A program made the translations under genes and the position numbers. Positions 1-11,681 of a stretch of 11,681 bases of DNA are shown here, piece after piece. The DNA is taken from UHGV virus genome UHGV-0168755; one strand, written 5' to 3'. This DNA comes from a virus. Positions within the stretch are counted from its first letter, which is position 1. The number at the start of each line of letters is the position of its first letter. Under the pieces are notes generated by a model. The model was not told the DNA's origin. It saw only the letters and a list, made by a program, of their open reading frames with translations, and made no database searches.

Positions 1-50
1 TACGAGATGTCTTAGGGTCTCGTGGGCTCGGAGATGTGTATAAGAGACAG
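1..50. other. Illumina Nextera adapter (i7 index plus transposase mosaic end); library artefact, not biological
   Basis: Sequence TACGAGAT-GTCTTAGG-GTCTCGTGGGCTCGG-AGATGTGTATAAGAGACAG matches the Nextera read-2 adapter with the 19-nt Tn5 mosaic end; its exact reverse complement is at the 3' end of the window. Confidence 0.95.
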
Positions 51-1648: not shown

Positions 1649-1900
1649 TTACCCCGCCATTAAAACTAGTTCTGAGTCAAGCGCGATACCTGCTTCCAGA
1701 TCTTCTTCAGTATCCTGGAAGAAACGGTTTATGTTGCTGATGTTCTCGTTATGGAGAATCATACAGCTCGAAACCTCATCCACGTTCGTGCTTGACATAA
1801 AGCCGTTATCTGGGCGATAAGCCATGCCCAGTTCCATTTCAATCTGGTCGATTGCTAATCTGCATTGTAACTGGTCGCCATCAAAATCCTGTATGTCCAC
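1649..1900 (-). CDS. multisubunit RNA polymerase beta'-like N-terminal subunit, exon 2 (catalytic DFDGDQ segment); 3' splice site within about 1895-1925
   Basis: Translation ...DIQDFDGDQLQCRLAIDQ...PDNG... contains the universal beta' Mg-binding motif (N)ADFDGD (codons at 1874-1888). The ORF-track start is a GTG that is probably internal to the spliced reading frame. Ends with tandem stops TAA TGA. Confidence 0.7.
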   Translation of the reverse strand: MDIQDFDGDQLQCRLAIDQIEMELGMAYRPDNGFMSSTNVDEVSSCMILHNENISNINRFFQDTEEDLEAGIALDSELVLMAG

Positions 1901-2262
1901 TCCAATCCTTTTGGAGCAGGTGTGCTAAGACACCCTCCCATGCTTTCACATGGGCACAGACTATATCATAACCGTAGGTAACATTACCCGTAGGTCTCCC
2001 CCACTTCGCCGCTAAACTAAGCAGCTACTCTACTCGGTTTTACCCTTTCGATAGTCGTTGAACGATTTTCACCGCTGCTGATTATCCATTATCACGACCC
2101 TTAGCATTATTGGTTAGCATAGGTCATCTTACAAATTATTTCTGACTTTCGTCACCCTATCGGGATCGTAAGCTTTAGGAGTTACCAGCAATTCAGGGGA
2201 TACGCACTAGAGGTTTCCCGTCTAGTGGGCCAACATTTAGCATTTGGTGCTTTGATGACACG
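1898..2262 (-). ncRNA. group I self-splicing intron (ORF-less, about 330-400 nt) interrupting the beta' gene; boundaries approximate
   Basis: Read on the minus-strand sense: P4/P5 region GACGGGAAACCUCUAGUGCGUAUCCCCUG (2194-2223), R/P7 5' strand GUUCAACGACUAUC (2050-2063), S/P7 3' strand AUGAUAUAGUCUG (1957-1969), P9 hairpin GCCCAUG-UGAAAG-CAUGGG (1937-1955), then two small hairpins before candidate terminal G at 1898-1900. Beta' homology stops before this and resumes at DFDGD after it. Confidence 0.7.
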
Positions 2263-3606
2263 ATCAGAAATACGCAGAGAACATTGTGTTACATCTGTCA
2301 GTACCGATGCAATAAACAACGTCTGAATAGAAAGCTGAACCAATGTTGGGTTACGTAGAACTTCCAACATTAAACCGAATCCACCGGGGGATTCTTTAAT
2401 CAGCTCATTAATAATTTCATGTACCAACGGTACATACTGCATTGCCGCAAATGCAATGATACGTTCGCACTGCCGTGGTGTATAATCACGACGACCCAGC
2501 TTGTTCTCAATGTGAACGCTCGCCAACGGAACCAACCAACGCCAAGGCGCAATCACTTTCAACGCATCGTGAGGTTCAGAGATAGGAGAGATAGTCACAC
2601 GTCCGCCCCACGGTACGTGTGTTGACCCGAGTTTTGCCCGATAGAACCCAGGTTTACCTTCCATCACTTCCTGACGATGGTCAATATAGAAATACGCAAG
2701 TTGACGATTCGCTTTGATTGCGCGACGAATAATAAATCGCGGATCGATACGACGTGCATTCGTGTACAGCAACGCCACATTTTTTACTGCGTCGATAGCG
2801 CTGGTGTATACGGGATCGATAAAGATACCCTGTCGACGTTCCTCCGTAACGATCAGTTTCGACGAAATAATCGGAAGATGCCTTGGAAAGAATGTGAACG
2901 ATTGCTCTTGAAAGAACTCACGCCATTCTAAGCGTACACGCTCACTCTCATAACGGTTATTTTTCGTTGGTGGATAAATCTCCTTCCAAACTTCCGGGGA
3001 CGTGAGGATATTAAAGACGGTTCGATGATGGTCGATAAAGTTTCGAATACCGCGTTCGAATCCGTGCTCAATGAGTATTCTTTTCACTACCCGAGCTCGT
3101 GTCCCTTCGTCCTTTTCTGGTCGATAGTACGGATCGATTAGCCATAGAAGCAAATCAGAACCGCGCTCTACCGTCACCTTGTTACGATTGAACTTTTTCA
3201 GCTTAGAACCAAAGAAAGCATTGAAGAGAGACCAAAAACGTGGATTGATAAAGTTGCCCATCTCATCGGGAGCACGTAACCAAACTTCGGACGTAATCCG
3301 GTGTTCAGAAACAACGTGTCCACAGTGCGGGCAACGTAGCCCAAGATTGTAACGATGGGTAATAGGTGATTCGCAGGTCAAACTGCAAATAGGAGCCGAG
3401 TTGAGTGTCTCATCAACGATTCGGTTTTGAAGTATCTGGTTAATCATCTCTGACGCTTCGATGGTATCCATCGTTACAGCAACGTCATTGATAATAATCG
3501 GCGGTTTGTAGCCTTTTTCCTCCGCTTCTTGTATACAGTCACGTAACATTTTATCGTGACTAATTAATCGCCCTGAAATCCCGTAATATTCTAGTTTATG
3601 TTCCAC
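2182..3606 (-). CDS. multisubunit RNA polymerase beta'-like N-terminal subunit, exon 1 (ORF as called; the last roughly 20-35 codons before the TAA at 2182 are probably intron read-through)
   Basis: GTG start at 3604-3606 with GAGGA 6 nt upstream. Zinc finger CSLTC-x13-CPHCGHVV (compare E. coli CxC-x12-CEKCGVEV), GGRVTISPI (compare GRSVITVGP) and LRNPTLVQLSIQ (compare NRAPTLHRLGIQ), in the same order as bacterial beta'. Confidence 0.8.
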   Translation of the reverse strand: MEHKLEYYGISGRLISHDKMLRDCIQEAEEKGYKPPIIINDVAVTMDTIEASEMINQILQNRIVDETLNSAPICSLTCESPITHRYNLGLRCPHCGHVVSEHRITSEVWLRAPDEMGNFINPRFWSLFNAFFGSKLKKFNRNKVTVERGSDLLLWLIDPYYRPEKDEGTRARVVKRILIEHGFERGIRNFIDHHRTVFNILTSPEVWKEIYPPTKNNRYESERVRLEWREFFQEQSFTFFPRHLPIISSKLIVTEERRQGIFIDPVYTSAIDAVKNVALLYTNARRIDPRFIIRRAIKANRQLAYFYIDHRQEVMEGKPGFYRAKLGSTHVPWGGRVTISPISEPHDALKVIAPWRWLVPLASVHIENKLGRRDYTPRQCERIIAFAAMQYVPLVHEIINELIKESPGGFGLMLEVLRNPTLVQLSIQTLFIASVLTDVTQCSLRISDRVIKAPNAKCWPTRRETSSAYPLNCW

Positions 3607-3690: not shown

Positions 3691-5538
3691 TCAGAAAGTC
3701 GGACGCCAGTCAGTTGCAGCGAAGGACATACCGAAATCGCTACCAAATGCGTTCGGGCCGCTACCAGACAGTGCGAAGTTCTCATTACCCGTGTTAACAA
3801 ACACAGAGTGAGTGAGGCTGTTCGCTGCGGTAACACCGTTCACCTGGAAGTTGCAGTTTTCGGTGATGTATTCCACCAGTGCTTTACCGAACATCGGGTT
3901 GATTGCCAGATCAGACGCTTCGCCAGTTACCTGCGGCTGTTTGCTACCGAACATGGACGCAGCCATTTTCAGCAGGTACAGACGCTGGTCACGCGCATTC
4001 AGATAGCGGTGAGAGTAGGACTGTGCACTAATGTAGTCGATCGCATCGCGCTGGTTGTCGCCCACTTTAGTCAGAGCGGAAACCAAGTCCATATCCTGGA
4101 AGCTACGTTTCTGGCTGTTGCTGAAATACTGACCAGAGATGGTCGGGCAACCGGCGATAACAACATGTTTGCACTCAAAGTTGTTGACATTTCCCAGCAT
4201 CGCTTTGAAGCGGGTGCTGAACTTAGTCGCGCCGTTGCTGGCCATGTTATCCAGGATGTTGAACAGGGTATACAGTGCGTTGGTGTTACCCATCCCGATT
4301 TCGCTCAGGAGAGTAGACAGACCACCAATACCGTTACCTGCACGATGGTTCACCACCAGTGCCGCAGTCGGATTAGCGAAAGTATCCAGGCATTTCTCGA
4401 TAACTTCACGGTTACCGTCGATTTTGCTCAGGTCAGGTTTTTCGCTGCCCCATTCTACATACTCCAGAACGCGGGAGAAGCGGCGATCGGTTTTGTTCAG
4501 CGACTGCATGAAACGTTCACGCCATCCGCCGATAGTGGCGATTTGTGCGAACGCGGCCAGTTCAATCAGCTGACGTTCGATAGGTGCCATTGCCCCAGAG
4601 GATTGAGAATCCATCAGAGAAACAACCACTTCGGCTTCCAGCTGACGCAGGTCCTGAGTACCGTTGGTCAGAGTTTGCGGTTTACCTTTATGGCGGAGGT
4701 TGATGTAACCAACACCTGCAACGCTCGGATAATTCTGGAGGCGTTCAGAAGAGAACAGCGTCGGGTTATTATCGTTATTGCCGGTGCGGGAATGGTCAAC
4801 CACAACCATCAGGTCAGCACGTTGTGCAGAACCGTTAACGTCAGTTACAGAACCTTCTTCAACGACACTGACTTGTGCAGTGAAGCGATCAGAGCGGGTC
4901 ATTTTCAGGTAGCCCAGGTAGCCGGAATGACGACCGAAGATACCCAGTGCAATCTGGCCCATGAGCTGGTTAGCCCATTCTTCGTTCATGGTTTTACCCA
5001 GTTCCGGTACGCAGTTCATTACCATGAACTGTACGCTCGGCAGATTGTGCTGAGTTGCAATCTGGTTAGTGATGTTGTTCATCACACCTTCTTGACTGAA
5101 CAGCTGTGCCAGGGTGTAGTAGTTTTCTTTACCGTTGATTTCGTAGAAACGGATGGATTGGCCGTGTTCGAAGAACAGGATACCGTAGAGCCATTCGTTA
5201 TGGTTATCACCAGACGGACCAGCCACATATGCAGCAGAACCCATTTCAGAGTTGATGCCGTCAATGACGCCCCAACGGAAGTTACGCAGGTAGGTGTTCT
5301 TCTCTGCCATCTTCTCAATCAGACTGGTGAACTGAGAAGCAGTGGACACAAAGGACATATACCCAAAAGCTTTATCGAAGGTGGAAATGTTTTTAGACAT
5401 TCCACCAAAAGCGTTGGCCGCATTGGTGTTATCCATAGTAGGAGCTCCCGCACCGCCGAAAGACGGAATTGGATCTGCGGCGGAACCAGCAGCACCAGTC
5501 ACAACGTCGTTTTGATTGTCAATAAACTCTTTAGCCAT
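3691..5538 (-). CDS. highly expressed 615-aa protein; candidate phage-nucleus shell protein (chimallin), alternatively a major virion structural protein
   Basis: ATG start with AAGGA RBS. Codon usage is visibly shifted to E. coli-type optimal codons (CTG, CGT, GGT, ACC, AAC, GAA) compared with neighbours. Gly/Ala-rich flexible N-terminal segment. Lies immediately upstream of, and co-oriented with, the beta' N-terminal subunit gene. Identity is inferred from size and position, not from recognised sequence. Confidence 0.7.
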   Translation of the reverse strand: MAKEFIDNQNDVVTGAAGSAADPIPSFGGAGAPTMDNTNAANAFGGMSKNISTFDKAFGYMSFVSTASQFTSLIEKMAEKNTYLRNFRWGVIDGINSEMGSAAYVAGPSGDNHNEWLYGILFFEHGQSIRFYEINGKENYYTLAQLFSQEGVMNNITNQIATQHNLPSVQFMVMNCVPELGKTMNEEWANQLMGQIALGIFGRHSGYLGYLKMTRSDRFTAQVSVVEEGSVTDVNGSAQRADLMVVVDHSRTGNNDNNPTLFSSERLQNYPSVAGVGYINLRHKGKPQTLTNGTQDLRQLEAEVVVSLMDSQSSGAMAPIERQLIELAAFAQIATIGGWRERFMQSLNKTDRRFSRVLEYVEWGSEKPDLSKIDGNREVIEKCLDTFANPTAALVVNHRAGNGIGGLSTLLSEIGMGNTNALYTLFNILDNMASNGATKFSTRFKAMLGNVNNFECKHVVIAGCPTISGQYFSNSQKRSFQDMDLVSALTKVGDNQRDAIDYISAQSYSHRYLNARDQRLYLLKMAASMFGSKQPQVTGEASDLAINPMFGKALVEYITENCNFQVNGVTAANSLTHSVFVNTGNENFALSGSGPNAFGSDFGMSFAATDWRPTF

Positions 5539-5746: not shown

Positions 5747-6808
5747 ATGTTCAGTCAAGCCGAGTTAAACCAAGCAGCCATAAAGGGTAAATTCGAAGAC
5801 CCTTCCGCTATACAATTGGTCAGTGCCGTAAAAAATAATAATCAGCGCATTCGCAACTATTTAGAGTCCATTCAAACCCGTGTTGTGTCGGGTCATCTGG
5901 TACTCAAAATTTTAGCGGCTATCGGATATGCGGGTGAACCCAGCTACGAAGAGATCGAGTGGGCATGTCGTCGCAAGCTTTCCGATATCGGTAATGCGCT
6001 ACACCTAACTTCTGTGGGGGAGTACGGTCAAGTTTTCAACGGGATCTTTATCGAAGGGCAAGATGAAATTATTTCACTCGTCGCTCGTCCCGTCAATCCT
6101 GAACTGTCTTTTCGTGACTATACACCCGCGGTTTATCTTTATCACGAGTACACGAATCTTAACTGGGGTCTCGGGAACGGCAAACCCCGAGGCATCAGCA
6201 TTATTGAAATCAATCTGGTTGCACTGCTTTGGCAGTACGTTCTTGCAGAACAGTATTACCGAACACAACCCGAACCGATTAACCGTGTTGTTTACGCGCA
6301 ACGTCACATCATTTACCGGATGCTGCCTAGCTACATGAATATCGCTTTTTTAAATATTCATCGCGCTATCGCAGCAGGTAAAGAAGTCGAACCCGAAACA
6401 CCACTTCGTGTTATCCCCACACCGCCATTACGTGAACTTTCAATTAAACACGCAACGCAAGTTTGTAAAGCCCTCCGTGCAGGTAAACCTTTACCTGGGG
6501 TAGTCATGGCACACATTCCCCAGTTCTTTGTTGATCCGACACACCCAACCACCGCGTTAGACCGTATCCTTTTTAAGGACCCCGGTTCAACCATTCAGGG
6601 TAGTTGGCACCGAAACATCGTGAACTGGTATTGGGCGTTGTTCTGCTTACAGTTCGATAACTCGAGCATGAGCAAATACAAATCCAATCTGATGGTACGT
6701 ATAGCCCGATTCGAAGATGCGAAGATACTGGAGAAACTTACACGTTCGGCGAGAAACTATTACCGACACGAGTTAATTTTGCCATTATACCACGCATTAG
6801 AAAATTAA
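5747..6808 (+). CDS. hypothetical protein (353 aa); the only plus-strand gene, monocistronic
   Basis: ATG with AAGGAG RBS at 5735-5740 (6-nt spacer); TAA stop followed by a short hairpin (6815-6829) and a strong terminator (6862-6898). No motif I recognise. Confidence 0.8.
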   Translation: MFSQAELNQAAIKGKFEDPSAIQLVSAVKNNNQRIRNYLESIQTRVVSGHLVLKILAAIGYAGEPSYEEIEWACRRKLSDIGNALHLTSVGEYGQVFNGIFIEGQDEIISLVARPVNPELSFRDYTPAVYLYHEYTNLNWGLGNGKPRGISIIEINLVALLWQYVLAEQYYRTQPEPINRVVYAQRHIIYRMLPSYMNIAFLNIHRAIAAGKEVEPETPLRVIPTPPLRELSIKHATQVCKALRAGKPLPGVVMAHIPQFFVDPTHPTTALDRILFKDPGSTIQGSWHRNIVNWYWALFCLQFDNSSMSKYKSNLMVRIARFEDAKILEKLTRSARNYYRHELILPLYHALEN

Positions 6809-6861
6809 GACTTACTCTCCCCCGGAGAGGACTCTTTCGAATCCTCATATAATAGAGTTAA

Positions 6862-6898
6862 AACGTTGCACTTCGGTGCAACGTTTACTTTCTTTTTA
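6862..6898 (+). terminator. intrinsic terminator between convergent genes, probably bidirectional
   Basis: Perfect 10-bp palindromic stem AACGTTGCAC-TTCG-GTGCAACGTT (6862-6885) followed by TACTTTCTTTTTA on the plus strand; on the minus strand the same stem is followed by TTAACTC. Confidence 0.7.
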
Positions 6899-7040
6899 CC
6901 GTAATTCGTATCCCATGACAAAAACATTCTGTCCGGTTACGTGTGCTAACCACCCGTTTAACGGATCGTCGTAATAGATTTCAAAACTGACAACGGGCTT
7001 TAGTCGGAACCAACGTTCGTTACACGGGATCGAATTAATC

Positions 7041-9353
7041 TCACTCGTCGTCAAAAGCCTCTTCTTCATCATCGTCTTCTTCGTCGTCACCTGCCCTCTC
7101 TGATTTCTTAACGTATTGTACTTCTGCTAATTCCTTGTACAGTTCGTCTTCTTCCTCGACTTTATCGTAGAAATCCGATAACAGTCTCATCCTGTTCTTA
7201 TCCATCATGAACACACCTAAGCATTCCAGAATGTGATAGTAAGGTTCAACTGTAGAGAAAGCCGTGCGACGAATGTCCGCGATAGCGATCAGTTCTTTAG
7301 GAATACCGTAGTTTTCCACCAAATGTTCTGGCAGAATCAACGTTTTGTATTTACGGTAGTTCGTCTCTTCAAACCACGCCGCTGCACCGTTTTTGATAAT
7401 CGGATCTTCTATACTGTCAACCCATTCTTTAATCTTCGTTTTGTTTTCCAACGTTACCGGAAGTTTCACAGCATCGTACGGCGGTTCTTCCAAGTAACCA
7501 AACTTCGGACCAAAGATAGCATTATACATTCGGTGATAGTGATAGTTCTTTTCGTCCTTCTCGTTATAAGCTGCACGCTCTTTAATGTTTGTCGTTTTCA
7601 GATACCCTGGATTACCGGAACGAATGGAATCCATAATCGTGTGCTCGATTTGCGCAACCTTTTCCAGTAATGGAATGATTTCAATTTGGTCACCGCGACC
7701 AACAACCTCACACAACCCCTTAATGGTATTCTTAAACTCCTTCATGATAATCGGCGGAATATTCGACGTACGTAAAGACACGCCTTTTACTTCCAACTCG
7801 GGATCTTTCTTCAACTGACCTTCCTGGCCGGTAATCAATGAGAAGTAGTGTTTTGCTTTGGTAGTTAAGGCAAATGAATCGAACTTAAATTCATTTTTCA
7901 TCGCATAAAGGAATAAACGCTCTTTTGCCACACCGATATTTGCAGACATACTCGCCATCAAATGACGTAAGTGTTGTGTAGCAATATAAATCATTGCATT
8001 GGAAACACGAGTCGCTACTTCACCGTAATGTTTACCGGTGTACCAGATTGCCCACCACTGTGCGGTCATCATGGTAGAGTCAGTATCAGATACCACACCA
8101 ACACGACGAACCACATCTGGCATTCTAGCGATATTAATCGGTAGGTTTTTTGTCGTGAGAATATTACGAATCAGTAACGCGTATTTACCGATTGTTTTCT
8201 GCAAGAACACCGCAGAACGAATCAGCTCTTTATAACCTTCTTGCTGATCCCACGGCAAGGGCTTTTTATTACCGTCAAGTTTCTTAACGTCGCTGAACGC
8301 TTTACCCATCGGTACCACGTCAGTGCGGAACTGTGAGATAATAATCTGCATATCGCCGTCGATGGTCTTCTCAGCAGCAGACCAATCCTCATCACTCCAA
8401 CCGTCGGTATCGACTCGCACTTCAGGAGTAATTAACGCGCCAATAAAATCACGCATGAATTTGTCGTTGTACTTCGCCAGGTGGAAAAAGTCACCCATGT
8501 ATACAAACGCTGCACGCGTTAACGGCGAAACATTACTAACATAATGCTCAACGAACTCCATCCCTTCTTCATTCTTAAAGTAGAAGTCTGCGGAGTAATG
8601 GATAACATCCATTACTTCTTCTACGGTCGGATAATGAAGTTCGTACGTCTCCATACATTTCTTAAAGCTGTTCCAATCGGTTAAAGTACCGATAGATAAG
8701 AAATGATCGATAATTCGTGATGGGGTATCGTAATGACGGTTGCCACCTAACAAACGCTCGTTGCCCGCATTGCCAAACGAGGTTGCAGTACGGCAGGTGG
8801 ACGTCAGCACAGAGTGCGAAGACTGGTTGAAGATAATGGTATACGGAGAAGAGAATGCGCCCGACATCCCGTTGTTCAGTGTCTTAACCGCGTTCTGTTC
8901 GTTCTTTTTGTTGATCTTTAATACTTCATTACCAGCAGCAGCAGCGGCAAACATCTCTTTCTTTACCGCAGCACGTTTCGCTACGTTGGCTGCTGTGAAT
9001 TCCGACAGCTTAGAACGTTTGATGTGTTCTGGAATATAAAAAGTTAACGAAGGTGCAGAGATGATCTGTTTATCAATAACGGTTTTAAATAGCTTATCAA
9101 CAGTTGTATATTTTTCCTCACGATCGCCCGTTTTCTGGTTACGCACCCACATCTTACACACGGGGGACTCGGTGGATAACTCACCGCCCGGTGCAACAAG
9201 TGCATCGACTTCTTGACGGCAAAACTCTAAAGGATATTTTTGTGCTGTCACGTTATGAATGTATAACGCAACCTGTTCACGGTAGGCATCGTTGATATCA
9301 ATATCGCGATGGTATTCGTCTACCGATAAACGAAAAGGAGAATTGTATTCCAC
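7041..9353 (-). CDS. hypothetical 770-aa protein with polyacidic C-terminus (DDEEDDDEEEAFDDE); function unknown
   Basis: GTG start at 9351-9353 with GAGG 6 nt upstream; first gene after the terminator at 9408-9446. Contains VVSDTDS and ALLIRNILT segments that loosely resemble DNA polymerase family B motifs C and B, but no convincing catalytic motif A. Confidence 0.75.
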   Translation of the reverse strand: MEYNSPFRLSVDEYHRDIDINDAYREQVALYIHNVTAQKYPLEFCRQEVDALVAPGGELSTESPVCKMWVRNQKTGDREEKYTTVDKLFKTVIDKQIISAPSLTFYIPEHIKRSKLSEFTAANVAKRAAVKKEMFAAAAAGNEVLKINKKNEQNAVKTLNNGMSGAFSSPYTIIFNQSSHSVLTSTCRTATSFGNAGNERLLGGNRHYDTPSRIIDHFLSIGTLTDWNSFKKCMETYELHYPTVEEVMDVIHYSADFYFKNEEGMEFVEHYVSNVSPLTRAAFVYMGDFFHLAKYNDKFMRDFIGALITPEVRVDTDGWSDEDWSAAEKTIDGDMQIIISQFRTDVVPMGKAFSDVKKLDGNKKPLPWDQQEGYKELIRSAVFLQKTIGKYALLIRNILTTKNLPINIARMPDVVRRVGVVSDTDSTMMTAQWWAIWYTGKHYGEVATRVSNAMIYIATQHLRHLMASMSANIGVAKERLFLYAMKNEFKFDSFALTTKAKHYFSLITGQEGQLKKDPELEVKGVSLRTSNIPPIIMKEFKNTIKGLCEVVGRGDQIEIIPLLEKVAQIEHTIMDSIRSGNPGYLKTTNIKERAAYNEKDEKNYHYHRMYNAIFGPKFGYLEEPPYDAVKLPVTLENKTKIKEWVDSIEDPIIKNGAAAWFEETNYRKYKTLILPEHLVENYGIPKELIAIADIRRTAFSTVEPYYHILECLGVFMMDKNRMRLLSDFYDKVEEEDELYKELAEVQYVKKSERAGDDEEDDDEEEAFDDE

Positions 9354-9407: not shown

Positions 9408-9446
9408 AAAAAAAAAAGAAAAAAAAAACCCTCTCCGAAGAGAGGG
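9408..9446 (-). terminator. strong intrinsic terminator ending the upstream four-gene operon
   Basis: 7-bp stem CCCTCTC-CGAA-GAGAGGG (9429-9446) followed immediately on the minus strand by a run of about 20 U (plus-strand A-run 9408-9428). Confidence 0.8.
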
Positions 9447-9454
9447 CATTCCGA

Positions 9455-9868
9455 TTAACCTGCGGCGTTTTCAATGATTTCGATTTCCACATCATTAAAG
9501 CCGCGCGCTGCCAACGCAGCTTCCAGATCTTCTTTCTCTTGTTTGTTGTCAAGCTGCACAACAAAACGAGCCGTCAAACTGGTAATTACTCTTACTTCAC
9601 GTACCCACGCATCTGCCGCAACGCCCACTTTACCCGTAGAATCACGGAACAACATGTAGTTGTACGCCGTAAGATCATTCGTCGGTTGCCCTACCAGCGA
9701 CGAATAAATGTTCTTCTGGATAGCAGCCAGATCTTCGCCTGCGGTTTTTGCGAATTCGTAACCGACTTTCGACGCGAGTACACGAACTCGCGTTTCGTTG
9801 CCTTTCAATGGGGTATCGTAAACAATGTTTACAATAGACCCTGGTTCAATGCTACTAAAATCAAACAT
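9455..9868 (-). CDS. hypothetical protein (137 aa from ATG 9866-9868; the ORF track starts 2 codons earlier at a GTG)
   Basis: GAGGAG RBS 5 nt upstream of the ATG; start overlaps the TGA of the upstream gene in ATGTTTGA (translational coupling); followed by the strong terminator. Confidence 0.7.
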   Translation of the reverse strand: MFDFSSIEPGSIVNIVYDTPLKGNETRVRVLASKVGYEFAKTAGEDLAAIQKNIYSSLVGQPTNDLTAYNYMLFRDSTGKVGVAADAWVREVRVITSLTARFVVQLDNKQEKEDLEAALAARGFNDVEIEIIENAAG

Positions 9869-10475
9869 TGTCACTCCTCAACATTGTGATGTCCAGATGG
9901 AACGTAACGTAAACACCCGAAACGGTACCTAAGTTGTCGTGTAACGATAAGTTTAAACACAAGCTCTCAATACCGCTTTTGTGCGCGGTACGAAAGAGCT
10001 GGATAGCGGGTAGACAATCGTTCTCGTAAATCTCGAGAATACTATCACGAAGAATTTCTATCGCGTGTTCACGCAACACATCCCAAGAAGACCCGCCTTG
10101 TATTTTACACAACTCATAGATTTCCAGAAGGGGTCGCATATCCTCAATCATGTCTTCCGTATAACTGGTTTCCATCATTGAGTTAAATTCCCACTGCCGG
10201 TATTCAGCATTTAACCGTTTCAGGTAACTGTCTAACTCTTTCAGTTCCCTTTTATTGCCAGGAAAGCTACACGCTTCCGATAGCTCACTGATCGCGGTAT
10301 TGATATATCGCGTTGCTTCATCCGTCGTCTCTATCGTTGTAGGAAAAGGCACTCGCATACAGCGAAAGCGCATTAGGGTTCTTACTAACTTATCTTTGTA
10401 GAAATCGCCATCCGTGGCGTATTCCAGTAACCCTAAGTTCGGACGGATGAAATGATCACCCCGTACTTTGTACAT
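9861..10475 (-). CDS. hypothetical protein (204 aa)
   Basis: ATG at 10473-10475 directly abuts the TGA of the upstream gene (10476-10478); AGAGG RBS 5 nt upstream. Confidence 0.7.
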   Translation of the reverse strand: MYKVRGDHFIRPNLGLLEYATDGDFYKDKLVRTLMRFRCMRVPFPTTIETTDEATRYINTAISELSEACSFPGNKRELKELDSYLKRLNAEYRQWEFNSMMETSYTEDMIEDMRPLLEIYELCKIQGGSSWDVLREHAIEILRDSILEIYENDCLPAIQLFRTAHKSGIESLCLNLSLHDNLGTVSGVYVTFHLDITMLRSDNV

Positions 10476-10928: not shown

Positions 10929-11352
10929 TGAACGTTTCCCCAATCCAACGTGTCAAAGGACCAGGAAACATAGAATTAATCAACGCAGCTAATCCTGTCT
11001 GCGTCACGAGTTCGTTTTGCAGTATCTCCGCCGCATGGCAAATCGCTACCATGTGGTTATTCTCATCCCCTACTGTGGAGAGAAACGTGATACTTTCTAC
11101 AGTTACGCCAGGGATCGTATTTTCGTCGTATGCGGTGACGGTAACCAGCTCTTTTAGCAGCTCAGGGTTACGTGCCTTCGCTGCGATAATGTACGCAGTA
11201 CCAAAGTCTTCATAGAGTCTACGGACATCGTGCTCGTAGACGTCTAAACGACCTGCTTCTAAAACGTCTACCAATACGTCCCGTACTGCTTCGTAGAATC
11301 GGGTTCTGCCGTAATTTTGTACCTCTTGTGCGACGTAATAGACATACTGCAT
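10846..11352 (-). CDS. hypothetical protein (168 aa)
   Basis: ATG at 11350-11352 overlaps the TAA of the upstream partial gene (TAATG arrangement). Confidence 0.65.
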   Translation of the reverse strand: MQYVYYVAQEVQNYGRTRFYEAVRDVLVDVLEAGRLDVYEHDVRRLYEDFGTAYIIAAKARNPELLKELVTVTAYDENTIPGVTVESITFLSTVGDENNHMVAICHAAEILQNELVTQTGLAALINSMFPGPLTRWIGETFNDLVLVCNETVYGNFGSVSPGAFTFTG

Positions 11353-11634
11353 TATAAGACCTTCCCAGCCAGGTTACCCAGCAACAGTTCTACAATCGTT
11401 TGCATATTCGGCGTCAGTTGTTGTAACAAAGCCGGTTCTTCGTATTCTGGGTACTTTACTTGCTCGTACCTTACCAGAAACTCTACCGCACCTGGCTTTT
11501 GTGCACAATAACGCGCACCTATCCACTGGCCGTATCGTGTAAACCAATACGGCTCTGTCGACACCGCCACCACAAAACTCTTCGCCACCTCCTGTGTCGA
11601 TTTTATATATTCCATTGCACGTTCACCATCTAAC
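11352..11634 (-). CDS. hypothetical protein, 5'-partial or starting at ATG about 11613-11615; the ORF-track N-terminus MGSEMCIRDR is adapter-encoded
   Basis: The frame is open from the insert edge. The first 10 codons of the track ORF are translated from the adapter CTGTCTCTTATACACATCTCCGAGCCCAC. A candidate real start, ATG (MEYIKSTQ...), has a weak GGTGA upstream. Confidence 0.5.
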
Positions 11635-11681
11635 CTGTCTCTTATACACATCTCCGAGCCCACGAGACCCTAAGACATCTC
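11635..11681. other. Illumina Nextera adapter (mosaic end CTGTCTCTTATACACATCT + CCGAGCCCACGAGAC + index CCTAAGAC + ATCTC); library artefact
   Basis: Exact reverse complement of positions 1-50; canonical adapter sequence. Position may be off by 1 nt. Confidence 0.95.

What the first reader, a model, noticed from the sequence alone, without database searches (positions are those of the whole stretch)
7041..9353. 770-aa protein with a polyacidic C-terminal tail and degenerate polymerase-like motifs
The protein ends in DDEEDDDEEEAFDDE, an acidic tail with an aromatic residue of the kind that mediates protein-protein contacts in phage replication proteins (SSB-type and helicase tails). Internally it contains GVVSDTDS (reminiscent of family B DNA polymerase motif C YGDTDS), ALLIRNILT (weakly like motif B LLINSLYG) and SSPYTII (weakly like motif A SLYPSII, but lacking the catalytic Asp). 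It could be a diverged or inactivated polymerase-like protein, or the resemblance may be chance.
Basis: partly seen in the sequence, partly recalled or inferred. Interest (0 to 1): 0.4.

Follow-up and report, generated by a model that had tools for sequence, protein, structure and literature searches.

The report
Polymerase half of split phage replicase
This gene encodes the polymerase-domain subunit of the two-piece family B DNA polymerase that phiKZ-like giant phages use to copy their genomes; the enzyme family is already described, so the finding is real but ordinary.

Summary
The 770-aa ORF (7041..9353, minus strand) and its acidic tail are real. The protein matches Pfam PF20286 "divergent family B DNA polymerase" over its full length (E=5.7e-280). 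It is the ortholog of SPN3US gp18 (80% identity) and phiKZ gp50 (35%). The conserved SH3-domain gene (PF20287) lies just upstream.

Its motifs A and B are misassigned. The true motif B is K157-x3-N161-x2-S164-G165. "SSPYTII" lies just after motif B, and "ALLIRNILT" lies in a lineage-specific helical insert.

The protein has no conserved motif A and no exonuclease domain. Both are carried by a separate 593-aa subunit, the ortholog of phiKZ gp82 and SPN3US gp44. That subunit has invariant ExoI-III motifs and D-x-D-L-T-x-A-Y-P. In phages whose polymerase subunit is 93-96% identical to this one, it is encoded about 27 kb away on the opposite strand.

The enzyme is therefore split, not inactivated. 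The residues for nucleotide binding and catalysis are invariant, and dN/dS is about 0.02-0.035. This split polymerase has been in the literature since 2012.

The acidic tail is specific to the SPN3US/Erwinia-phage clade, is predicted to be disordered, and its aromatic residue is not conserved.

Verdict: a new member of a known kind, low interest.

The parts
7041..9353 (-). Gene for the polymerase-domain (C-terminal) subunit of a split family B DNA polymerase. 770 aa. Ortholog of SPN3US gp18 (YP_009153312.1) and phiKZ gp50.
   Evidence: Pfam PF20286 at 930.9 bits, covering residues 11-729 against profile positions 3-705 of 705. PHROG 2927 'DNA polymerase' at 1034.6 bits. 35% identity to phiKZ gp50, E=7e-147. 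80% identity to the SPN3US gene. AF2 model pLDDT 88.5. Foldseek top hits are all family B polymerases.
8850..9011 (-). Fingers domain: two long antiparallel helices, residues 115-168. Carries R127 and K131, equivalent to RB69 R482 and K486.
   Evidence: AF2 helices 115-139 and 143-168. The family profile aligns to the yeast Rev3 fingers, E=0.004. hhalign against a T4-like profile aligns KRAAVKKEMF with QRKDWKKKMF. R127 and K131 are invariant, 148/148.
8859..8885 (-). True motif B: K157-T-L-N-N161-G-M-S164-G165, the variant of KxxxNSxYG.
   Evidence: Aligned to T4 KILINSLYG and to Rev3 KLLANVTYG. K157, N161, S164 and G165 are invariant, 148/148.
8109..8741 (-).
   Evidence: AF2 predicts eleven helices between residues 211 and 399, mostly at pLDDT above 90. 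No counterpart was found in the T4-like profile. Described for the family by Iyer et al. 2021.
8466..8501 (-). Invariant motif Y285-x-G-D288-x-x-H-x-x-K-Y-N296 inside the insert. Function unknown.
   Evidence: D288 is conserved in 145/148 and N296 in 146/148 representatives. pLDDT is 97-98 in this region.
8076..8099 (-). Motif C: G-V-V-S-D423-T-D425-S, with the catalytic metal-binding aspartates in a beta-hairpin.
   Evidence: D423, T424, D425 and S426 are invariant, 148/148. AF2 strands at 420-422 and 427-429. The motif lies collinearly between the aligned fingers and the KxY segment.
7818..7853 (-). K501-H-Y503 ... E511-G512, equivalent to RB69 K706-R-Y708 ... E716-G717 (the primer-terminus-contacting KKRY region of the palm).
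   Evidence: The profile aligns residues 482-531 to RB69 706-755. hhalign against the T4-like profile gives E=0.002. K501, Y503 and E511 are invariant.
7170..7766 (-). Thumb region, residues about 530-728.
   Evidence: Position after the KxY motif. The mixed helix/strand model is confident. Pfam PF20286 coverage runs to residue 729.
7044..7169 (-). Clade-specific acidic C-terminal extension, residues 729-770. 22 D/E and 5 K/R. Ends in DDEEDDDEEEAFDDE.
   Evidence: pLDDT is below 50 for residues 758-770. The extension is present only in relatives at about 65% identity or more, and absent in phiKZ gp50 and most of the family. dN/dS is 0.07-0.08.
9455..9874 (-). Upstream gene for the small SH3-fold protein associated with these polymerases (139 aa). 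Counterpart of phiKZ gp49.
   Evidence: Pfam PF20287 SH3DP at E=3.2e-30. phiKZ gp49 matches the same family at E=5.4e-37. The same gene order is found in phiKZ, SPN3US and Huxley.
9428..9447 (-). Terminator-like GC hairpin followed by a T-run, between the SH3 gene and the polymerase gene.
   Evidence: Consensus scan only. Function not shown.

Best explanation
The ORF encodes the polymerase-domain subunit of the two-subunit (split) family B replicative DNA polymerase of phiKZ-related jumbo phages. This window comes from an SPN3US-like member of that group.

This polypeptide supplies four parts. The fingers carry the residues that bind the dNTP triphosphate (R127, K131, K157, N161). The part of the palm with motif C carries D423 and D425. 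The K501-x-Y503/E511 element contacts the primer terminus. The thumb makes up the rest. It also carries a long helical insert found only in this family.

It lacks the N-terminal domain, the 3'-5' exonuclease and a conserved motif A. Those lie on a second protein of about 593 aa, the ortholog of phiKZ gp82 and SPN3US gp44. That protein is encoded about 27 kb away on the opposite strand in close relatives.

Inferred: the partner's C-terminal strand, with invariant D-x-D-L-T-x-A-Y-P, docks into this subunit's palm. That would complete the two-metal active site and give a composite catalytic centre.

Shown: family membership, fold, the location and conservation of the motifs, co-occurrence of the two genes, and purifying selection. 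Inferred: physical association of the two subunits, donation of motif A in trans, and any role of the SH3 protein. A role for the acidic tail as an electrostatic tether is also only inferred.
For: - Family membership: full-length Pfam PF20286 and PHROG 2927 matches. The ortholog SPN3US YP_009153312.1 is the exemplar of the 'divergent family B polymerase' in Iyer et al. 2021.
- Fold: AF2 model at pLDDT 88.5 and pTM 0.83. All top Foldseek PDB hits are family B polymerases.
- Collinear profile alignments to the Rev3 fingers and motif B, to RB69 706-755, and to the T4-like R/K helix and motif B.
- R127, K131, K157, N161, D423, D425, K501, Y503 and E511 are invariant in 148 diverse representatives.
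- No conserved acidic residue exists at the N-terminus: D19 is D in 62 and N in 56 of 148.
- Partner family: ExoI D150-x-E152, ExoII N260..D264, ExoIII Y393..D397 and D504-x-D506..Y511-P512 are conserved in 73-74 of 74 sequences (N260 in 73, the others in all 74).
- The partner profile hits RB69 gp43 at E=2.2e-6, collinearly through residues 404-430, which hold motif A. The partner model matches RB69 gp43 by Foldseek at E=2e-13.
- In the partner's AF2 model, the motif A segment (464-530) has pLDDT below 50 while residues 1-460 are above 90. This fits a segment that folds only in the complex.
- Co-occurrence: the polymerase subunit is found in 302 phage records and the partner in 291, with identical counts for each major host genus.
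- All 12 IMG/VR contigs that carry the partner also carry the polymerase subunit. This includes four whose polymerase subunit is 93-96% identical to the window's, with about 27 kb between the genes.
- Literature: SPN3US gp18 and gp44 are a 'split subunit DNA polymerase', first identified in phage OBP. Antisense knock-down of phiKZ 049, 050 and 082 impairs plaque formation. The RAY homolog localises to the phage nucleus.
- dN/dS is 0.02-0.035.
Against: - No biochemical or structural data exist for any member; phmmer found no PDB relative.
- The motif A segment of the partner-versus-RB69 alignment is not significant on its own (score about 0 bits). It rests on collinearity and invariance.
- I had no model coordinates and no multimer prediction, so docking of the partner's strand next to D423/D425 is inference.
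- The partner gene is not in this 11.7-kb contig. Its presence in this very phage is inferred from relatives 93-96% identical.
- This clade's protein does have D17, D19 and Y24 in the same register as motif A. A local contribution from these residues cannot be fully excluded.
- The invariant D288 is unexplained.
Confidence: 0.87

Rival explanations
1. The 770-aa protein is a self-sufficient polymerase. It would use its own N-terminal D17/D19 (or D288) as the first-strand metal ligand. The gp82/gp44-type protein would then be only a separately encoded proofreading exonuclease that associates with it. This is the reading implied by Iyer et al. 2021.
For: - Iyer et al. describe the exonuclease as a standalone protein encoded elsewhere and do not mention motif A.
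- In this window the N-terminus reads R-D17-I-D19-x4-Y24. This is in register with the partner's D504-x-D506-x4-Y511 in hhalign's best local alignment.
- D288 is nearly invariant.
Against: - D17 and D19 are not conserved across the family. D19 is D in 62, N in 56 and S in 7 of 148; D17 is D in 84 of 148. That is implausible for an essential catalytic ligand of the only replicase.
- The hhalign match is not significant, E=0.03-0.11.
- D288 lies between two helices in an all-helical insert, not at the end of a palm strand.
- The partner carries an invariant D-x-D-L-T-x-A-Y-P that aligns collinearly with RB69 motif A. That segment is predicted disordered when the partner is modelled alone.
Confidence: 0.09
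2. The protein is an inactivated polymerase-like relic (a pseudo-enzyme) kept for a structural or regulatory role.
For: The canonical motif A and the exonuclease domain are absent from this polypeptide. Motif B deviates from the consensus: S164 replaces Tyr, and the motif reads NN instead of NS.
Against: - All remaining catalytic and substrate-binding residues are invariant in 148 representatives.
- dN/dS is 0.02-0.035.
- Literature on related phages describes this divergent enzyme as the typifying DNA polymerase of the group and a core gene; I did not search for a second polymerase.
- Knock-down of the phiKZ ortholog impairs plaque formation.
- The missing parts are supplied by a strictly co-occurring partner.
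Confidence: 0.03
3. The polymerase resemblance is chance, and the protein is something unrelated such as a virion structural protein.
Against: - Pfam E=5.7e-280.
- Foldseek probability 1.0 to family B polymerases.
- The SPN3US orthologs gp18 and gp44 were not detected in virions.
Confidence: 0.01

Closest known systems
SPN3US gp18 / phiKZ gp50 / OBP-type 'divergent family B DNA polymerase' (Pfam PF20286). This is the C-terminal subunit of the split polymerase of phiKZ-related phages.
   Same: Full-length homology: 80% identity to SPN3US gp18 and 35% to phiKZ gp50. The same motifs are present (K-x3-N-x2-SG, SDTDS, KHY), along with the same helical insert, the same upstream SH3DP gene, and the same neighbourhood (a gp52-like gene, then a 615-aa ORF, then the RNA polymerase beta'-like gene).
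   Different: It carries a 42-residue acidic C-terminal extension that phiKZ gp50 and most family members lack. In sequence it is a distinct lineage, at most 81% identical to any GenBank phage.
T4-like split gp43A/gp43B DNA polymerases (for example Acinetobacter phage Ac42 and related phages).
   Same: A family B replicase divided into two polypeptides. The break falls between motif A and motif B. gp43A is about 502 aa and covers about 56% of T4 gp43, so it holds the exonuclease and motif A, as the gp82/gp44-type partner does here.
   Different: I did not check the gene arrangement of the T4-like split halves; from memory they are adjacent genes. They remain easily recognisable by Pfam PF00136/PF03104. 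Here the halves lie about 27 kb apart on opposite strands. They are also so diverged that Pfam does not recognise the exonuclease half of phiKZ. The helical insert is absent in T4-like enzymes.
RB69/T4 gp43 (canonical single-chain family B replicase).
   Same: Palm, fingers and thumb fold. Equivalents of R482, K486, K560, N564, D621, D623, K706, Y708 and E716 are present.
   Different: No N-terminal domain, exonuclease or motif A in this chain. It has a 210-aa helical insert before motif C. Ser replaces the motif B Tyr. There is no hydrophobic clamp-binding C-terminus. According to Iyer et al., these phages lack a classical sliding clamp.
Acidic C-terminal tails of T7 gp2.5 (single-strand binding protein), T7 gp4 (helicase-primase) and E. 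coli SSB. This comparison is from my own knowledge.
   Same: A disordered, strongly acidic C-terminus on a replication protein, plausibly an electrostatic handle for protein-protein contact.
   Different: In those systems the tail is on the SSB or helicase, contacts the polymerase, and ends in an essential aromatic residue. Here the tail is on the polymerase. Phe767 is fourth from the end and is not conserved: it is Val in a 99%-identical protein and absent in most relatives that have a tail.

Membership tests
PF20286 divDNApol (phiKZ gp50 / SPN3US gp18 type polymerase subunit) | Full-length match to the family profile above the curated threshold. | tested here: met
   930.9 bits against a cut-off of 25.7. 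Residues 11-729 match profile positions 3-705 of 705.
PF20286 divDNApol | D-x-D (DTD) metal-binding motif in the palm beta-hairpin. | tested here: met
   S-D423-T-D425-S is invariant in 148 representatives. The hairpin strands are at 420-422 and 427-429.
PF20286 divDNApol | Long multi-helical insert immediately N-terminal to the motif C strand. | tested here: met
   Eleven predicted helices between residues 211 and 399. The feature is as described.
PF20286 divDNApol | No fused 3'-5' exonuclease domain. | tested here: met
   No PF03104 hit. Residues 94-189 already align to the region just before and within the fingers of canonical PolB.
PF20286 divDNApol | Conserved upstream SH3-fold gene (PF20287). 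| tested here: met
   The ORF at 9455..9874 (minus strand) matches PF20287 at E=3.2e-30.
Split phiKZ-type family B polymerase (two-subunit enzyme) | A separate gene in the same genome encoding the N-terminal domain, ExoI-III and motif A. | tested here: inconclusive
   The partner is not on this 11.7-kb contig. It is present about 27 kb away in IMG/VR contigs whose polymerase subunit is 93-96% identical. It occurs in 291 phage records against 302 for the polymerase subunit. Its motifs are invariant.
Split phiKZ-type family B polymerase | Physical association of the two subunits and DNA polymerase activity. | not testable with these tools
   No multimer prediction or model coordinates were available, and there is no biochemistry in the literature I searched.
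Canonical family B DNA polymerase (PF00136 + PF03104, single chain) | Motif A (DxxSLYPS) with an invariant Asp. | tested here: not met
No conserved acidic residue lies N-terminal to the fingers. D19 is D in 62 and N in 56 of 148.
Canonical family B DNA polymerase | Motif B (KxxxNSxYG). | tested here: met
   The variant K157-TLN-N161-GM-S164-G165 aligns to T4 and to Rev3 and is invariant.
Canonical family B DNA polymerase | Motif C (YGDTDS). | tested here: met
   V-S-D-T-D-S at residues 421-426.
Canonical family B DNA polymerase | Exonuclease motifs ExoI, ExoII and ExoIII in the same chain. | tested here: not met
   Absent from this chain. They are found in the partner family.
Canonical family B DNA polymerase | Pfam PF00136 match above the gathering threshold. 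| tested here: not met
   19.9 bits against a cut-off of 23, covering residues 94-189 only.
T7-type acidic C-terminal interaction tail | A conserved aromatic residue at the extreme C-terminus. | tested here: not met
   The tail ends ...AFDDE. The Phe is replaced by Val in P0001 (99% identical) and is absent in P0002-P0009.

The most novel reading that the evidence does not exclude
The family's nearly invariant Y285-x-G-D288-x-x-H-x-x-K-Y-N296 motif, in the 210-aa helical insert, could be a second functional site with no counterpart in any characterised polymerase. It might act in primer synthesis or primer hand-off, since Iyer et al. note these phages lack a recognisable primase. It might instead dock the trans-acting motif A strand or stand in for a sliding clamp. 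In the same spirit, the degenerate N-terminal D-x-D-x4-Y, which mirrors the partner's motif A, could be a relic showing that the split arose by duplication and complementary decay rather than by simple fission.
Probability: 0.1. Interest if true: 0.6.

Novelty: new member of a known kind. Interest (0 to 1): 0.15.

Why it matters
For annotation, this ORF should be named 'DNA polymerase, family B, polymerase-domain subunit (split enzyme)'. It is not a degenerate polymerase. The contig belongs to an SPN3US-like jumbo phage related to phiKZ.

More generally, the phiKZ-type replicase has not been characterised biochemically or structurally. Three features could be tested by experiment:
- The predicted composite active site, with motif A on one polypeptide and motifs B and C on another, the two genes lying about 27 kb apart.
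- The conserved D288 motif.
- The clade-specific acidic tail.

None of these is a new discovery about the kind of system.

Tried and rejected
1. phmmer of the protein against PDB found nothing. Comparison of the A1 profile with a single T4 gp43 sequence found only the KxY segment. Global hhalign against a T4-like profile failed. Local mode gave the fingers and KxY alignments.
2. Motif A at D17/D19 was considered on topology and on the D-to-Y spacing. It was rejected because those positions are not conserved in 148 representatives.
3. D288 as a permuted motif A (hydrophobic run, then D-x-x-H-L) was considered. It was rejected as a canonical motif A because AF2 places it between two helices in an all-helical insert. 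Its function is left unexplained.
4. A split intein or trans-splicing joining the two halves was rejected by inspection. The 'HN' at residues 33-34 is not conserved and is followed by Val. The partner's C-terminus is conserved palm sequence, not intein blocks.
5. Homology between this protein's N-terminus and the partner's C-terminus gave hhalign E=0.03-0.11, in register but not significant.
6. I tried to show that the 615-aa neighbour is chimallin. BLASTP against phiKZ gp54 gave E=0.41. A 6-sequence profile against PDB gave no hit. hhalign gave E=0.015 at probability 3%. This is not demonstrated.
7. I tried to find both subunits on one Logan or NCBI contig by exact look-up, without success. 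The question was resolved with IMG/VR.
8. NCBIfam gave no meaningful hit for either subunit.
9. The Cornelissen 2012 paper is not held. It is cited through Thomas et al. and Ali et al..
Full report
**The observation.** The window has a 2,313-nt ORF on the minus strand at 7041..9353. It starts with GTG and encodes 770 aa. An AGAGG ribosome-binding site lies upstream. The quoted peptides are all present: GVVSDTDS at residues 419-426, ALLIRNILT at 392-400, SSPYTII at 168-174, and the C-terminal DDEEDDDEEEAFDDE at 756-770. The window is the ENA metagenome contig ERZ1026973 NODE_425. Exactly the same 770-aa product is called on five other public contigs. The acidic run has 13 D/E in 15 residues; no shuffle out of 20,000 reaches that.

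**What the protein is.** It matches Pfam PF20286, 'Divergent Family B DNA polymerase', end to end. The score is 930.9 bits, E=5.7e-280, with residues 11-729 against profile positions 3-705 of 705. It also gives a weak, sub-threshold match to PF00136 over residues 94-189. PHROG 2927, 'DNA polymerase', matches at 1034.6 bits.

The ORF immediately upstream (9455..9874, minus strand) is PF20287, 'SH3 fold domain associated with phage DNA polymerases' (E=3.2e-30).

tblastn finds homologs in 302 phage records, all jumbo phages related to phiKZ. The best are Salmonella SPN3US-like phages at 81% identity and Erwinia phages at about 75%. Identity to phiKZ gp50 is 35% over the full length (E=7e-147).

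The SPN3US ortholog, YP_009153312.1, is the exemplar Iyer et al. [quoted passage not shown] They listed four features: a DXD motif in the palm hairpin, a long helical insert before the second palm strand, no fused exonuclease, and an upstream SH3 gene.

A profile search of 1.84 billion cluster representatives finds 696 members at E≤1e-30.

**Structure and motifs.** An AF2 model built on 55 homologs is confident (pLDDT 88.5, pTM 0.83). Its best Foldseek matches in the PDB are all family B polymerases: RB69 and T4 gp43, Pol alpha and E. coli Pol II. Probability is 1.0; TM-scores are low because of domain movements and the insert.

Profile alignments place the parts collinearly:
- Residues about 94-175 align to the fingers of yeast Rev3, including motif B.
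- K126-R127..K131 aligns to T4 Q-R-K..K, the equivalents of RB69 R482 and K486. K157-TLN-N161-GM-S164-G165 aligns to K-ILI-N-SL-Y-G, which is motif B.
- K501-H-Y503..E511-G512 aligns to RB69 K706-R-Y708..E716-G717.
- S-D423-T-D425-S lies between these elements, in a predicted hairpin.

In 148 representatives that are less than 50% identical to each other, the following are invariant: R127, K131, K157, N161, S164, G165, D423, T424, D425, S426, K501, Y503 and E511.

Its 'motif A' (SSPYTII) is the stretch just after motif B. Its 'motif B' (ALLIRNILT) is the last helix of the family-specific insert, which spans residues 205-415.

**Where motif A and the exonuclease are.** No acidic residue N-terminal to the fingers is conserved. 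D19 is D in 62 and N in 56 of 148; D17 is D in 84 of 148.

phiKZ gp82, annotated 'DNA polymerase' and matching PHROG 3011, contains GDIET, WNISFD and YNIID. Near its C-terminus it has ADLDIVSTYPNV.

In 74 homologs of that protein, D150-x-E152 (ExoI), D264 (ExoII), Y393..D397 (ExoIII) and D504-x-D506-..-Y511-P512 are invariant, and N260 (ExoII) is conserved in 73 of 74. The family profile hits RB69 gp43 at E=2.2e-6 in three collinear pieces. The last piece aligns 'vaDaDvtqaYPs..N.skeT' with RB69 404-430 'MSFDLTSLYPS..N.SPET'. That piece is not significant by itself.

An AF2 model of the SPN3US-clade partner (P0390) matches RB69 gp43 by Foldseek at E=2e-13. The model is confident for residues 1-460, but pLDDT falls below 50 for residues 464-530, which hold motif A. 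This is what one expects of a strand that folds only against the other subunit.

The partner occurs in 291 phage records, with the same count for each major host genus as the polymerase subunit. All 12 IMG/VR contigs that carry the partner also carry the polymerase subunit. Four of them have a polymerase subunit 93-96% identical to the window's. In UViG_3300045988_113438, for example, the polymerase gene is at 9.7-12.0 kb and the partner at 39.3-41.1 kb on the other strand.

The literature already describes this. [quoted passage not shown]

**Function.** The enzyme is split rather than dead.
- dN/dS against relatives with unsaturated dS is 0.02-0.035.
- The polymerase is a core gene of chimallin-encoding phages, and the RAY homolog localises to the phage nucleus (PMC10299810).
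- Antisense knock-down of phiKZ 049 (SH3 protein), 050 (this subunit) and 082 (the partner) impairs plaque formation (PMC12571901).

The most likely mechanism is that the partner's motif A strand completes this subunit's palm, so the two-metal centre is assembled from two polypeptides. This step is inferred. I had no model coordinates and no multimer prediction.

**The acidic tail.** Residues 729-770 hold 22 D/E and 5 K/R. Residues 758-770 are predicted to be disordered. Comparable tails occur only in relatives at about 65% identity or more, that is, the SPN3US, Erwinia-phage and allied metagenomic lineages. phiKZ gp50 and most of the family end at the conserved ...SD[FY]Y.

The tail is under purifying selection, though weaker than the core (dN/dS 0.07-0.08). 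What is conserved is its acidity and an internal Y-[VI]-x-K-x-E-R, not the Phe. That Phe is Val in a protein 99% identical.

An electrostatic tether to another replisome component, or a DNA-mimicking autoinhibitory tail, are both plausible. Both are untested.

**Unexplained features.**
- The motif Y285-x-G-D288-x-x-H-x-x-K-Y-N296 in the helical insert is nearly invariant. It has no counterpart in canonical PolB.
- This clade's N-terminal R-D-I-D-x4-Y mirrors the partner's motif A in register. The match is not significant (E=0.03-0.11).

**Context.** Gene order matches phiKZ 049-055 and Erwinia phage Huxley. On the minus strand it runs: SH3 gene, polymerase gene, a gp52-like gene on the opposite strand (E=9e-8), a 615-aa ORF, then the RNA polymerase beta'-like gene. 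The 615-aa ORF occupies the position of chimallin (gp54), but I could not show homology.

**Verdict.** It is partly wrong on the assignment of motifs A and B, on 'inactivated', and on the aromatic tail motif. This is a new member of an already described family. Interest is low.

Noticed in passing
window 1889..2238 (minus strand); flanking exons 2239..3606 and 1649..1888: A 350-nt group I intron with no ORF interrupts the RNA polymerase beta'-like gene (PHROG 2987). The Rfam RF00028 match is 56.6 bits against a gathering score of 50, E=1.9e-12. The intron sits exactly inside the catalytic motif, between NA and DFDGD. The 5' exon ends in T and the intron ends in G. Contigs encoding the identical polymerase protein carry an intron-less allele (535 aa reading ...KAPNADFDGDQ...); that allele's RNA polymerase gene region is 99.5% identical to the window's. 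The intron is therefore polymorphic in this phage population. phiKZ has an HNH endonuclease gene at the equivalent place.
   Followed up: yes
window 1..50 and 11635..11681: Both contig ends are Illumina Nextera adapter sequence, present as inverted copies (...GTCTCGTGGGCTCGGAGATGTGTATAAGAGACAG, with i7 index GTCTTAGG). The N-terminus 'MGSEMCIRDR' of the ORF at 11352..11663 (minus strand) is translated adapter and is an assembly artefact.
   Followed up: partly
window 3691..5538 (minus strand): This 615-aa ORF (PHROG 8316, unknown function) occupies the position of the phiKZ nuclear-shell protein ChmA (gp54), between the gp52-like gene and the RNA polymerase beta'-like gene. No significant similarity to phiKZ gp54 or to any PDB chain was found: BLASTP E=0.41, profile against PDB no hit, hhalign E=0.015. 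It is only 50% identical to its SPN3US homolog, against 80% for the polymerase.
   Followed up: partly
window 7041..9353 product and its partner; public clusters of P0001 and P0390: Near-identical copies of both polymerase subunits occur in hundreds of public sequences (cluster sizes 733 and 467). Many lie on contigs of about 220-226 kb inside assemblies labelled Salmonella enterica, E. coli or Shigella. An uncharacterised jumbo phage of about 224 kb therefore seems to travel with enterobacterial isolates, as a carrier state or pseudolysogeny, or as contamination.
   Followed up: no
window 8466..8501 (minus strand; residues 285-296): The motif YxGD288xxHxxKYN296, inside the helical insert of the polymerase subunit, is nearly invariant across 148 diverse family representatives. 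No function is known and canonical PolB has no counterpart.
   Followed up: partly
window 9282..9308 (minus strand; residues 16-24): The N-terminal R-D-I-D-I-N-D-A-Y mirrors, in register, the partner subunit's invariant motif A (A-D-A-D-L-T-Q-A-Y-P). The match is not significant (hhalign E=0.03-0.11), and the Asp positions vary across the family. It may be a relic of an overlap between the two halves.
   Followed up: partly
window 6896..7090 (minus strand): A 64-aa ORF overlaps the last 50 nt of the polymerase gene. Gene callers report it on some related contigs (63 aa in L018). It shows no similarity to the small gene that overlaps the polymerase 3' end in Erwinia phage Huxley.
   Followed up: partly
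window 6861..6886 (plus strand) and 6811..6843: A perfect 11-bp-stem hairpin followed by a T-run lies between the convergent 353-aa gene and the polymerase gene. It is probably a bidirectional terminator. A nearby weak, sub-threshold Rfam 'CRISPR-DR30' match (24.6 bits against 50) is most likely a chance match or just another hairpin.
   Followed up: no
window 5747..6808 (plus strand): This 353-aa ORF on the opposite strand is a distant homolog of phiKZ gp52, annotated 'structural head protein' (BLASTP E=9e-8; PHROG 3938).
   Followed up: partly
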